Shown here piece by piece: positions 1,156 to 3,700 of a stretch of 64,000 nt of DNA. The stretch is from contig NC_090363.1 in NCBI RefSeq assembly GCF_035084215.1, positions 1,488,001 through 1,552,000 of the forward strand, in the 5' to 3' direction. Below the pieces are notes generated by a model. It was not told where the DNA came from and did no database searches. It saw only the letters and a list, made by a program, of their open reading frames with translations. The stretch is from Heptranchias perlo (taxonomy: Eukaryota). The position numbers and the translations under genes were made by a program. Position 1 is the first letter of the stretch; every line of letters starts with the position of its first letter.

Positions 1156-1305
1156 CTGTTTGCCTGTCGAGGGCTTGTGTAAACTGGTTAATGGCGGGAG
1201 GAACTTTCAGTCTCTTGTACAGGATTGAGCGTTGACGCTGCAGGCGGACATAACGAGGCCACTTCACAAACCTGGTCAGGTCCCGTTTGGGCTGAATGTC
1301 CTGTC
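1156..1305 (-). CDS. RPL7A: RPL7A-like (eL8) exon 3
   Basis: 150-nt exon bounded by tacag| and |gtgag. Encodes (G)[49 protein letters not shown], near-identical to vertebrate RPL7A. Phase is compatible with exon 2. Downstream exons lie outside the window. Confidence 0.95.
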
Positions 1306-1424
1306 CTGTAAACGGGAGAGTCGCAATGAAAACACAACCCTCTAGTTTCTGCTCTTCTCTTATCGACTTGCAACGTGGATCTAAGCTTGCGAACCAGAAA
1401 TGAACGGTAGAAGTGGGAGAATCC

Positions 1425-2030
1425 GGAACAATCTTAAAATGAGAGCTTGGTCATTTAACAGTGAAATCAGGAAGCACAATTTTCACACAAAGGGTAGTGG
1501 CAATTTCGAACTCTCTTTCCCCCTCCCTCCCACCCCACCCAAGACCATGGAAGCTGGGGGACAATTGAAAATTGCAAGGTACGAGTGTCAATTTTAAGAA
1601 TGTGCCCCCTTGTTCTGAATTTGTTTACCAGAGGAAATAGTTTCTCTGTATCTACCTTATCGAATCCCATTACTATTAAAAATCCTCAATTAGATCATCC
1701 CATAACCTCCTATTATCAAGGGAATATAAGTCAAGTCTGTGCAATCTGGCCTCATAATCTAACCGTTTTCGCCCCAGTATCACTCTGGTGAATCTGAGCT
1801 GCACCCCCTCCAAGGCCAATATATCCCTCCTGACATGCGGTGCCCAGAATTAAATGTGGTCTAACCAGAGTTTTATATAACTAACATAATTTCCAGCCCC
1901 TTTGAGATATACGCCAACACTCCACTAGTCCTGCTGATTACTTTTTGTACCTAGCTTTTAATGATTTCTGTAGCTGGACACCCAAATCCCTCAGCTCCTC
2001 TACTTTCTAGTCTCTCACCATTCAGAAAAT
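1425..2030. mobile_element. Degenerate CR1-type LINE fragments (both orientations)
   Basis: Remnants such as LFPLVNKFRTRGHILKI and SEIRKHNFH resemble the CR1 ORF2 C-terminus seen intact at 5411-6526. Confidence 0.65.
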
Positions 2031-2112
2031 AGGTGTAAAGTTCACAGAACCGTACACCTATGTAACAGGCAATGAAATCCAGCCATAATTTATAAATACA
2101 TCAATGACACAC

Positions 2113-2375
2113 TGCGCTCCTCCAATTCCGGCCTCTTGCGTATCTCCGATTTTAACTGCTGCACCATTGGCGGCCGTGCCTTCAGCTGCTCTGGAATTCC
2201 CTCCCTAAACCTCTCCCTCCCCCTTTAAGACGCTCCTTAAAACCCACCTCTTGGACCAAGCTTTCGGTCACCTGTCCGAATATCTCACGCGGCTCAATGT
2301 CAAATTTTGACGCGTTACGCTCCTGTGAAGTGACTTGGGACGTTTTACTACGTTAAAGGCGCTATATAAATGCAC
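2113..2375 (+). mobile_element. L2-like LINE 3' end
   Basis: IGGRAFS/LWNSLP-type coding remnant and tail GGGACGTTTTACTACGTTAAAGGCGCTATATAAATGCA, shared with copies at 22975, 37660 and 53905. Confidence 0.8.
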
Positions 2376-2444
2376 GTGGTGGTAGCGGCTGCTGGTCTGT
2401 GTAACAGAACCTACCTGTGCCAACACTCTGCCAGTGTTACTCAC

Positions 2445-2568
2445 CAATGCCGAAGTTCTTGGGCCTTTTCTCGAAGAGCGGGTTGACTGTCTTTTTCTGC
2501 TCCTGTTTCCGGTGGAGGACGGAAGGGGCAGGGGCCACCTTCTTTCCCTTGCCTTTCTTCCCCTTTGG
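2445..2568 (-). CDS. RPL7A: RPL7A-like (eL8) exon 2
   Basis: 124-nt exon, polypyrimidine tract plus ttcag| and |gtgagt. Encodes [41 protein letters not shown](G), the RPL7A N-terminus. Confidence 0.95.
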
Positions 2569-2769
2569 CTGAAGAGAAACAAAAAAAAAACCATCAGCTC
2601 TGGATATTAAAAGGGCCGAGCAGCCTCTTCGCGGGGGGCCGCGGTGACGCAGGGCGGGCAGTACGGCATTATACGGCCAGCCTCTCGACACTCCCCGGGC
2701 CAGGCGACGCGGGGCTCGAATTCCGGTGCCGAATTACAGTACGACGGCTGAGGCGATAAACTGAGCGGC

Positions 2770-3240
2770 CAGGCGGGCGCGCAAAACAAAAACCCACGCG
2801 GGCGGGCGGGCGCGCAAAACAAAAACCCACGCGGGCGGGCGGGCGCGCAAAACAAAAACCCACGCGGGCGGGCGCGCAAAACAAAAAAACCCACGCGGGC
2901 GGGCGCGCAAAAAAAACCCCACGCGGGCGGTCGCGCAAAAAAAAAACCCACGCGGGCGGTCGCGCAAAAACAACCCACGCGGGCGGGCGCGCAAAACAAA
3001 AACCCACGCGGGCGGTCGCGCTAAAACAACCCACGCGGGCGGGCGCGCAAAAACAACCCACGCGGGCGGGCGCGCAAAAACAACCCACGCGGGCGGGCGC
3101 GCAAAAACAACCCACGCGGGCGGGCGCGCAAAAACAACCCACGCGGGCGGGCGCGCAAAACAAAAACCCACGCGGGTGGGCGCGCAAAAACAACCCACGC
3201 GGGCGGGCGCGCAAAAAAAAAACCCACGCGGGCGGGCGCA
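2770..3240. repeat. CpG-rich minisatellite (~27-33 bp; CCCACGCGGGCGGGCGCGCAAAAACAA) in RPL7A-like intron 1
   Basis: About 16 copies with variable A-tract length. Confidence 0.9.
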
Positions 3241-3499
3241 CAAATTTACCACTGTAGCTGAGATCTCAGGCATCGACTCAATGCTCCGTCCCTGGGGGTC
3301 CCCCCCCCACCACATCCCCTCCTATTTCCCCCCCACGCCCCCCACATCCCCCCCGCCATCCAAGACCCGACCGGACAAACTCAAAACTACAACAGGAGGC
3401 CCCGAGTGTGAACACAAGGCCCCGCCTCAGAAACCCCGATTTTTTTTTTAAAAAAAAACCCCCTCGGGCATCTCCCCGATAATAATACCGCAAATCAAT

Positions 3500-3700
3500 C
3501 CGCTAACGTCCCATCGATGCGGCGGGCGGGTGTGCGGGGGTCCGGGGGCCGGGATGGCCGAGATTGAGAGCGGATTAGCGGCAGGCCCCGGGCCCGGGCC
3601 CCTCACACCCACCATTGTCGGCACCAGCGAGATCCCGCGGGGCCAACGATCGCGAGATCGGGGCTGGGGCGGGGGCGGGAATATTTGAATCACTGGGACT
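3500..3700 (-). promoter_or_regulatory. CpG-island promoter of the RPL7A-like gene
   Basis: High CpG density, GC boxes at ~3666-3680, and GATCGCGAGA at ~3648-3657 (9/10 match to the TMTCGCGAGA BANP-type motif). Confidence 0.6.
3613..3615 (-). CDS. RPL7A: RPL7A-like exon 1 coding part (ATG only)
   Basis: gccgacaATG|gtgggt has A at -3 and a GT donor, lies in a CpG island, and is phase 0 onto exon 2. RPL7A genes have an ATG-only first coding exon. Confidence 0.7.

What the first reader, a model, noticed from the sequence alone, without database searches (positions are those of the whole stretch)
1156..3615. Intron-containing RPL7A-like gene next to B3GALT4-WDR46: candidate retained MHC-paralogon ohnolog
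Seen: three spliced RPL7A-type exons, transcribed divergently from B3GALT4. Established: in mammals the gene upstream of B3GALT4 in the extended MHC class II region is RPS18, while RPL7A (SURF3) lies in the Surfeit cluster at human 9q34, one of the MHC paralogons. Inference: this may be a second eL8 gene kept from the vertebrate whole-genome duplications in the MHC of a cartilaginous fish and lost in mammals. The introns argue against a retrocopy.
Basis: partly seen in the sequence, partly recalled or inferred. Interest (0 to 1): 0.75.

Follow-up and report, generated by a model that had tools for sequence, protein, structure and literature searches.

The report
Second RPL7A gene in shark MHC
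This shark has a spliced extra gene for the ribosomal protein RPL7A in its immune (MHC) region, closest to an elephant shark sequence and likely left over from the second vertebrate genome doubling, a copy that bony vertebrates appear to have lost.

Summary
Three GT-AG exons (3615-3613, 2568-2445, 1305-1156, minus strand) encode the start of eL8/RPL7A, 12 kb from a B3GALT4-type gene and WDR46. RNA contigs splice exon 2 to 3 and exon 3 to an exon 4 outside the window. The same sample holds a second spliced RPL7A transcript with many synonymous differences. The protein equals a RefSeq 'eL8-like' model of Heptranchias perlo. It groups with an elephant shark cDNA (97-99/94), apart from 13 other shark and ray RPL7A proteins, whose genes share a chromosome with SURF1 in 8 of 8 species checked. 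A single-gene tree is rejected (AU p=0.0055). So this is very likely an old second gene. Its age is not settled: the best trees weakly favour a duplication on the chondrichthyan stem, but a split before bony and cartilaginous fish parted is not rejected (p=0.19, 0.27). Position favours a 2R ohnolog, because the MHC and the Surfeit chromosome are proposed 2R sisters. Gaps: no genome was available, this species' Surfeit locus was not seen, and the elephant shark cDNA is unmapped. Verdict: probable shark-retained ohnolog (0.62), a new member of a known kind.

The parts
3613..3615 (-). Exon 1 coding part (ATG alone) of the RPL7A/eL8 paralog, in a small CpG island; no pyrimidine run longer than 5 nt in the 170 nt upstream
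   Evidence: RNA-type contigs cover the bin 3501-3640 in 4 of 4 runs
2445..2568 (-). Exon 2 (124 nt), lysine-rich N-terminal tail; holds the four residues shared with the elephant shark cDNA and one extra residue
1156..1305 (-). Exon 3 (150 nt); spliced onward to an exon 4 left of the window
3489..3489 (-). Alternative 5' splice site in intron 1, joined to exon 2 in one run; if read from the exon 1 ATG it shifts the frame and stops in exon 3
   Evidence: joint 2568/3489; frame
3250..3250 (-). Second alternative 5' splice site in intron 1, joined to exon 2 in 3 of 4 runs; if read from the exon 1 ATG there is a stop at codon 56; RefSeq isoform X3 uses an ATG at 3315
   Evidence: joint 2568/3250
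1306..2444 (-). Intron 2 (1139 nt), largely repeat-derived; no SNORD24 or other snoRNA found
15434..16516 (+). Single-ORF beta-1,3-galactosyltransferase in the B3GALT4 position (360 aa)
   Evidence: order matches white shark and reedfish lists
39912..40040 (-). WDR46 exon (human residues 204-246); ends approximate
   Evidence: E 3.9e-14
38787..38942 (-). WDR46 exon (human residues 243-294); ends approximate
   Evidence: E 4.7e-19
8051..15132 (.). Tandem arrays (36-mer x128, TG-rich, 49-mer x27, 51-mer) between the RPL7A paralog and B3GALT4; the place where a misjoin could hide
   Evidence: not bridged by any search

Best explanation
The window holds the first three exons of a transcribed, spliced eL8/RPL7A gene beside B3GALT4 and WDR46, and it is likely the MHC-side twin of the Surfeit RPL7A, kept from the second vertebrate genome doubling (2R). 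Shown: exon structure, splicing, a second RPL7A transcript in the same sample, the grouping with an elephant shark cDNA apart from the SURF1-linked shark and ray genes. Inferred: one 1R chromosome carried RPL7A near the BRD-RXR-COL5/11 block; 2R gave a 9q-type copy (kept beside SURF1 and MED22, with its intronic snoRNAs) and an MHC copy; bony vertebrates lost the MHC copy, while holocephalans and at least this shark kept it. The protein is predicted to enter the 60S subunit like ordinary eL8, since it is about 90% identical to all jawed-vertebrate eL8 and its lineage-specific residues sit in the N-terminal tail. The likely reason for retention is dosage with divergent regulation: it has shed SNORD24, shows no TOP-like pyrimidine tract, and has alternative intron 1 donors that would yield unproductive mRNA.
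For: Splicing across intron 2 and into exon 4. RefSeq model XP_067829915.1 carries the downstream exons in frame, skipping exon 4, on the same 21,079,719-base record as the window's B3GALT protein. Second transcript: contig pieces of 56-59 nt with 8-9 differences in 2 of 3 RNA-type runs, and loose ends in 3 of 3, one crossing the exon 2/3 junction with 7 of 7 consecutive third positions changed. Window + C. milii clade 99/94, 98/94, 97/94 in three trees; other elasmobranchs 100/98, 98/97, 99/97. Window gene with galeomorph sharks rejected, p-AU 0.0055; with all elasmobranchs but without C. milii rejected, p-AU 0.030. SURF1 shares a record length with the usual RPL7A in 8 of 8 elasmobranch species where both lengths were shown. 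All jawed rows, both types, form one clade against cyclostomes (98/96), as 2R predicts. Verissimo et al. 2023 (PMC10751288, passages) propose that MHCpara-6 and -9 descend from one 1R chromosome; in C. milii the Surfeit site lies 0.1-0.3 Mb from COL5A1, RXRA, BRD3 and NOTCH1 (supplement). No snoRNA in introns 1-2, whereas chicken RPL7A hosts U24 and U36 (PMC2653536, passages).
Against: The best trees do not show the predicted topology: the two chondrichthyan types are joined at 90/83 and 74/80; the 2R topology is only 'not rejected' (p-AU 0.19, 0.27). The link to C. milii rests largely on four columns within 21 residues of the N-terminal tail, some of which recur singly in sturgeon, carp, frogs or lampreys. 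C. milii has an unnamed gene in the RPL7A position between surf1 and med22, and the cDNA may come from it; placing that cDNA with the SURF1-linked genes is not rejected (p-AU 0.070). The second transcript has Ile at residue 61 where 16 of 16 other elasmobranch rows have Val and 16 of 19 bony-vertebrate rows have Ile, so a foreign origin is not excluded. No other shark or ray sequence of the window's type came up or 36 (clusters at 90% identity hide members; only 15 of 85 in the C. milii cluster were listed). A 96%-identical copy of the neighbouring B3GALT lies on another record of the same species, so the area has seen duplication.
Confidence: 0.62

Rival explanations
1. The gene arose by a DNA-level (intron-keeping) duplication on the chondrichthyan stem, after the split from bony vertebrates, and one copy landed in the MHC by chance. 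It works as a second eL8 gene but is not an ohnolog.
For: It is the best-scoring topology (90/83, 74/80). It needs no loss in bony vertebrates. Val61 is shared by the window gene, C. milii and 16 of 16 other elasmobranch rows.
Against: Support is below the starred level, and the same trees misplace major bony lineages. It needs the copy to land on the one chromosome that is the proposed 2R sister of the source. The second transcript has Ile61, which weakens Val61 as a shared chondrichthyan mark.
Confidence: 0.2
2. The elephant shark cDNA is simply its Surfeit gene, the grouping with it is ancestral similarity or convergence in the N-terminal tail, and the window gene is a younger duplicate confined to the hexanchiform or squalomorph lineage.
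For: Unnamed C. milii gene in the RPL7A position at Surfeit; C. milii plus SURF1-linked elasmobranchs not rejected, p-AU 0.070; no other elasmobranch sequence of this type was seen.
Against: Window gene inside elasmobranchs is rejected (p-AU 0.030 and 0.0055); identity to C. milii is 95.0% against 89.4-90.8% to six sharks and rays; the four shared residues are absent from 20 of 20 other jawed rows.
Confidence: 0.08
3. This is the only RPL7A of the species, moved from Surfeit to the MHC or placed here by a misjoin; the second transcript is contamination.
For: The DNA-type run gave one record only on exon 3; the second transcript has the bony-type Ile61; 7 kb of tandem arrays separate the gene from B3GALT4; this species' SURF1 was not returned.
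Against: The second transcript is in 3 of 3 RNA-type runs laid, with summed depth far above trace level. A sole orthologue should sit with other sharks, which is rejected (p-AU 0.0055). SNORD24 is missing. RefSeq calls the gene 'eL8-like'.
Confidence: 0.05
4. It is an ohnolog from the first doubling (1R), older than the cyclostome split.
For: Not rejected, p-AU 0.18.
Against: Both types group with jawed vertebrates against lamprey and hagfish (98/96; 94/96; 87/91), and MHC and 9q are proposed 2R sisters.
Confidence: 0.05

Closest known systems
Vertebrate RPL7A / eL8 (SURF3) of the Surfeit cluster (Pfam PF01248; PDB 7oya_G1, 6qzp_LG)
   Same: Same exon borders for exons 1-3 as recalled for human RPL7A (ATG-only first exon; exon 3 of 150 nt), about 90% protein identity, L7Ae domain in the RefSeq model.
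   Different: Lies beside B3GALT4 and WDR46, not SURF1/MED22; no snoRNA in introns 1-2; no TOP-like tract; one extra residue and four distinct residues in the N-terminal tail.
Callorhinchus milii ribosomal protein L7a cDNA (AFM85895.1, K4G4N3)
   Same: 95.0% identical over 218 columns, same four tail residues, sister in all three trees.
   Different: Lacks the extra His in the tail; its genomic position is unknown to me (no contig).
Ribosomal protein ohnolog pairs from 2R: RPL3/RPL3L, RPL7/RPL7L1, RPL22/RPL22L1, RPS27/RPS27L (Kuang et al. 2020, PMC7072992, passages; paired names recalled)
   Same: Intron-bearing duplicate ribosomal protein genes on paralogous chromosomes.
   Different: Those four are kept in bony vertebrates; that survey covered 13 chordates and no cartilaginous fish ('shark' occurs 0 times), and lists no second RPL7A.
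Shark-only ohnologs (135 families in PMC13450315, passages)
   Same: Duplicates kept in sharks and single-copy in other jawed vertebrates, hard to call by trees alone.
   Different: The paper's text and the one supplement held do not name RPL7A; its online database could not be consulted.
RPL5-like gene beside WDR46 in reedfish and near B3GALT4 in sawfish (PMC10751288 supplement)
   Same: A second ribosomal protein gene in the same MHC neighbourhood, with its twin on another MHC paralogon (human RPL5 at 1p22, recalled).
   Different: Different gene; kept in a bony fish too.

Membership tests
eL8 / RPL7A protein family | Sequence match to eL8 with an L7Ae domain | tested here: met
   Exon 3 E 5e-27 to eL8 chains; PF01248 in the RefSeq model, E 5e-22
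Functional gene (not a retrocopy or pseudogene) | Introns with GT-AG ends, open frame, spliced transcripts | tested here: met
Functional gene (not a retrocopy or pseudogene) | Intact exons 4-8 | tested here: inconclusive
   Exon 4 start seen in RNA-type contigs (up to 23 nt); exons after it are open in RefSeq isoform X3; the full exon 4 and the genomic DNA left of the window were not seen
Surfeit-type RPL7A orthologue | Linkage to SURF1 and MED22 | tested here: inconclusive
   The 5' neighbours in the window are B3GALT4 and WDR46, not MED22; the 3' side is outside the window; this species' SURF1 was not returned
Surfeit-type RPL7A orthologue | Hosts SNORD24 (U24) in an early intron | tested here: not met
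   No Rfam match at gathering score, no snoRNA among 8 matches at E up to 5 in 1-8000, no C/D box pair
Surfeit-type RPL7A orthologue | Groups with the SURF1-linked genes of other sharks | tested here: not met
   p-AU 0.0055 and 0.030
2R ohnolog of the MHC paralogon | Two intron-bearing loci in one genome | tested here: inconclusive
   Two spliced transcripts in one sample; the second genomic locus was not seen (no genome held)
2R ohnolog of the MHC paralogon | Copies lie on paralogous chromosomes | tested here: met
   Window copy beside WDR46 and B3GALT4, MHC genes in white shark and reedfish; Surfeit copy on MHCpara-9 in reedfish, lungfish and other elasmobranchs; shown across species, not within this one
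2R ohnolog of the MHC paralogon | Split after cyclostomes and before the bony/cartilaginous divergence | tested here: inconclusive
   After cyclostomes 98/96; before the gnathostome split neither best tree nor rejected, p-AU 0.19 and 0.27
TOP mRNA ribosomal protein gene | Polypyrimidine tract across the transcription start (mean 12.2 bp in mammals, PMC554972) | tested here: inconclusive
   Longest pyrimidine run within 170 nt upstream of the ATG is 5 nt, but the start site was not mapped; contigs cannot show a start
Specialised-ribosome paralog | Incorporated into ribosomes with tissue bias or distinct function | not testable with these tools
   Needs ribosome proteomics and read-level RNA-seq

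The most novel reading that the evidence does not exclude
Sharks and chimaeras keep a 2R twin of RPL7A inside the MHC that has lost both its snoRNA cargo and its TOP leader, so it would supply eL8 outside the mTOR/LARP1 translational control that governs other ribosomal protein mRNAs, while limiting itself through unproductive splicing in intron 1. It would be a fifth 2R ribosomal protein pair, a new anchor gene of the MHC paralogon, and a natural case of eL8-heterogeneous ribosomes in vertebrates.
Probability: 0.2. Interest if true: 0.62.

Novelty: new member of a known kind. Interest (0 to 1): 0.43.

Why it matters
Ribosomal protein genes almost always return to one copy after genome doubling; a survey of 13 chordates without sharks found four 2R pairs (PMC7072992). 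A fifth, kept only in cartilaginous fish, would add a housekeeping anchor to the MHC/9q paralogon, show that the proto-MHC chromosome carried part of the Surfeit cluster, and warn against using RPL7A as a single-copy phylogenetic or qPCR reference in chondrichthyans, since the elephant shark sequence in UniProt may be the paralog. The split of duties (snoRNAs and perhaps TOP control on one copy only) is a testable case of regulatory subfunctionalisation. It does not overturn any model: shark-only ohnologs are a known class.

Tried and rejected
Whole-genome search: no genome is held, so tBLASTn for a second locus and for exons 4-8 was not possible. Finding this species' SURF1 by a search with the SURF1-like tail of a Rhinoraja model: 10 hits of 13 candidates, 7 clusters opened, none from H. 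perlo or C. milii; weak search, no conclusion. Tissue-specific expression: run X6 showed far higher depth on exons 1-2 than X5, X7, X8, but exact exon 3 contigs had depth above 10,000 in X5, X6 and X7 and the tool filters human-like contigs, so I dropped the idea. Ranking the two genes by depth: not valid for contigs. No listed holder is on record as RNA; X5-X8 are guessed RNA, and I treat them as RNA only because their contigs skip GT-AG introns. No contig in the bin 3641-3780 in 4 of 4 runs: not taken as a start site. DNA run X1 gave one record on exon 3: not taken as absence of a second locus. Relaxed selection: the window protein has 2 private changes at otherwise invariant columns, against 0-5 in 34 other rows, so no sign of it. 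Recent segmental duplication from the Surfeit chromosome: rejected, since the second transcript differs at most third positions and the window gene groups with C. milii. Pfam scan of 148 ORFs (the 100 longest of 258 in 40.4-60.4 kb, and 48 of 174 minus-strand ORFs in 16.6-40.4 kb) found only a reverse transcriptase piece and missed known WDR46 exons, so it says little about further genes. Rfam hits at E up to 5 were hairpin or lncRNA matches far below gathering scores. Paper searches that found no report of a second chondrichthyan RPL7A: RPL7A+MHC+shark, RPL7A+B3GALT4 (15), cartilaginous fish+MHC+WDR46+paralogon (29), ribosomal protein genes+elephant shark+RPL7A+genome duplication (34), MHC+9q34+Surfeit+paralog (46), ribosomal protein L7a+paralog+chondrichthyan (73), Heptranchias perlo+genome+MHC (80); all seen as listings only. 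Earlier-finding look-ups were empty.
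Full report
Observation. On the minus strand an ATG at 3615-3613 is followed by GT; exon 2 is 2568-2445 (124 nt) and exon 3 is 1305-1156 (150 nt); introns 1 and 2 are 1044 and 1139 nt with GT-AG ends, and the 277 joined bases are free of stops. Exon 3 matches eL8 chains of solved ribosomes at E about 5e-27. Exon 2 is 100% identical to 'eL8-like isoform X3' of Heptranchias perlo (XP_067829915.1) and 95% to a Callorhinchus milii cDNA (AFM85895.1); the other 118 of the 120 listed hits are 71-84%. The neighbour at 15434-16516 is a galactosyltransferase held on a record of the same length, 21,079,719 bases, as the eL8-like model. 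Two WDR46 exons were confirmed against human WDR46. B3GALT4 and WDR46 face each other tail to tail, as in the white shark and reedfish MHC gene lists (PMC10751288 supplement). The Atlas gives a B3GALT4 cluster at rank 2 among near-equal scores, and RefSeq names a 96% twin of this protein 'B3GALT9-like', so the name B3GALT4 rests on position.

Is it expressed and whole? Four runs of one sample, guessed to be RNA, give contigs that skip intron 2 (2 of 4 runs) and join exon 2 to alternative donors at 3250 (3 of 4) and 3489 (1 of 4). At 1156 the contigs run on into sequence that reads as the start of exon 4 in 3 of 3 runs laid. RefSeq isoform X3 skips exon 4 and is open to the usual C-terminus. 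So exons 4-8 very probably exist; I did not see their DNA.

Is there a second RPL7A? On exon 3 at 80% likeness, runs X5 and X7 give contig pieces of 56-59 nt with 8-9 differences, and loose ends in X5, X6 and X7 continue an RPL7A frame with other codons. One loose end crosses the exon 2/3 junction and differs at 7 of 7 consecutive third positions with no amino acid change; the other has 5 silent changes and Ile for Val at residue 61. Loose ends are by nature the most divergent parts. Summed depth over the shared stretch is far above trace level, which argues against a contaminant, though contig depth cannot rank genes. Against this reading: Val61 is found in 16 of 16 other elasmobranch rows and Ile in 16 of 19 bony-vertebrate rows, and the DNA-type run gave only the window's own locus.

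Where does it fall? Three protein trees (44, 29 and 25 rows) agree on a clade of the window gene and the C. milii cDNA (99/94, 98/94, 97/94) and on a separate clade of all other shark and ray proteins (13 rows at 100/98; 7 rows at 98/97 and 99/97). I left out partial or chimeric models (Rhinoraja, Cetorhinus, Eptatretus), one near-copy (Chiloscyllium punctatum) and mammalian retrocopies; the smaller trees thinned similar rows and distant outgroups. The window model lacks exon 4 (219 columns present). Identity is 95.0% to C. milii and 89.4-90.8% to six sharks and rays. Holding the window gene with galeomorph sharks is rejected (p-AU 0.0055), and with all elasmobranchs minus C. milii too (0.030). 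Four columns (Gly7, Leu19, Gln24, Thr27) are shared by the two and absent from the 20 other jawed rows; singly, some recur in sturgeon, carp, frogs and lampreys. The other clade is the Surfeit gene: SURF1 lies on a record of the same length in 8 of 8 species where both lengths were shown (Amblyraja, Leucoraja, Rhinoraja, Hemitrygon, Mobula birostris, Stegostoma, Rhincodon, Heterodontus), with consecutive accession numbers in the two skates.

How old? Both types stay inside jawed vertebrates, with lamprey and hagfish outside (98/96). Beyond that the protein is too conserved. The best trees join the two chondrichthyan types weakly (90/83, 74/80). The 2R topology is not rejected (p-AU 0.19, 0.27), nor is 1R (0.18), nor C. 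milii with the Surfeit genes (0.070). Position carries the argument. Verissimo et al. (PMC10751288; passages, sections 11 and 12, supplement searches and four supplement parts read) propose that the MHC and the 9q paralogon descend from one 1R chromosome, so they are 2R sisters. In C. milii the Surfeit site lies 0.1-0.3 Mb from COL5A1, RXRA, BRD3 and NOTCH1, whose twins COL11A2, RXRB and BRD2 are MHC genes in that paper. A duplicate that keeps its introns and sits on the sister chromosome is what 2R would leave; a later duplication must land there by chance. Earlier AI notes place PPT2, IER3 and C4 on this same piece (untested here). Simakov et al. (PMC7269912, passages) date 2R after the lamprey split and before bony and cartilaginous fish parted; Nakatani et al. 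(PMC8302630, passages) put the MHC on a microchromosome with high gene loss, which fits loss in most lineages.

The main gap is C. milii. Between surf1 and dnlz-med22 it has an unnamed gene, LOC103184709, holding two small genes of 73 and 78 nt. I infer this is RPL7A with SNORD24 and SNORD36; the sheet gives no names. If the cDNA comes from this gene, the window gene's sister is a Surfeit gene and the story changes to a younger duplicate or gene conversion. The cDNA has no contig, which does not decide it.

Who else has it? In the supplement, 'l7a' occurs 5 times, none in an MHC sheet. Only the reedfish and sawfish sheets carry product names, and the sawfish sheet shows no WDR46, so reedfish is the one fair negative; white shark, catshark and lungfish could hide it under LOC numbers. 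In white shark and reedfish the gene upstream of b3galt4 is pfdn6, so RPS18 is not the right comparison.

How it likely works. The protein is predicted to be an ordinary 60S component: only 2 private changes at otherwise invariant columns, and three of the four lineage residues lie before residue 25-29, where many deposited eL8 chains begin, which suggests a flexible tail (inference). The differences look regulatory. Chicken RPL7A hosts U24 and U36 (PMC2653536, passages); here Rfam and a box search find none in introns 1-2 or the 1155 nt of intron 3 in view. Perry (PMC554972, passages) reports a polypyrimidine tract at the start of all vertebrate ribosomal protein genes examined; here the longest run within 170 nt of the ATG is 5 nt, in a CpG island with a TCTCGCGA motif, but the start site is unmapped. 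If the two intron 1 donors are used from the normal first exon, both give early stops, as in the splicing-and-decay autoregulation recalled for nematode rpl-7A and human RPL3; they may instead be separate starts. I commit to dosage retention with split regulation; every functional step is untested.

Known kinds and novelty. The gene is annotated as 'eL8-like', so it is not new as a sequence. Kuang et al. (PMC7072992, passages) list RPL3, RPL7, RPL22 and RPS27 as the 2R pairs and sampled no cartilaginous fish. A 2026 ohnolog database paper (PMC13450315, passages and its one supplement) reports 135 shark-only ohnologs and does not name RPL7A; its online tables may. Seven paper searches showed no report of this copy; the library lacks most subscription journals. 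Verdict: an old second RPL7A about 0.87, a 2R ohnolog 0.62; new member of a known kind; interest 0.43.

Noticed in passing
window 15434-16516 and XP_067826229.1: A 96%-identical copy of the B3GALT protein lies on a 37,379,989-base record of the same species, with a different C-terminus after residue 347: a recent duplicate between chromosomes or an assembly artefact.
   Followed up: partly
PMC10751288 supplement, reedfish chr1 and sawfish chr34: A '60S ribosomal protein L5-like' gene lies next to wdr46 in reedfish and about 0.18 Mb from b3galt4 in sawfish: a second candidate ribosomal protein ohnolog in the same MHC neighbourhood.
   Followed up: no
white shark NC_054485.1 115,472,571-115,613,256: Unnamed LOC121291862 beyond pfdn6 points away from b3galt4, as the RPL7A paralog does here; worth checking for eL8 exons.
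   Followed up: no
P0037 (XP_078282295.1, Rhinoraja longicauda): The 'eL8-like' model is a chimera of RPL7A exons 1-3 and a SURF1 N-terminal piece (95% to that species' SURF1), although the two genes normally face each other; a local inversion, duplication or model error.
   Followed up: partly
window 2772-3244: A 27-mer GC-rich tandem array (16.5 copies) fills half of intron 1, just downstream of the alternative donor at 3250; a 23-mer array lies at 194-332 in intron 3.
   Followed up: no
window 6737-6820: Near-perfect AT-rich inverted repeat that scores weakly against microRNA models; related pieces at about 6585 and 7430 suggest a small DNA-transposon remnant.
   Followed up: no
window 27025-28134 and 54970-55392: LINE reverse transcriptase remnants; the second matches RVT_1.
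   Followed up: no
window 36225-36923, 47228-47396, 61187-63814: Runs of N totalling 2720 bases; the first lies in the WDR46 span.
   Followed up: no
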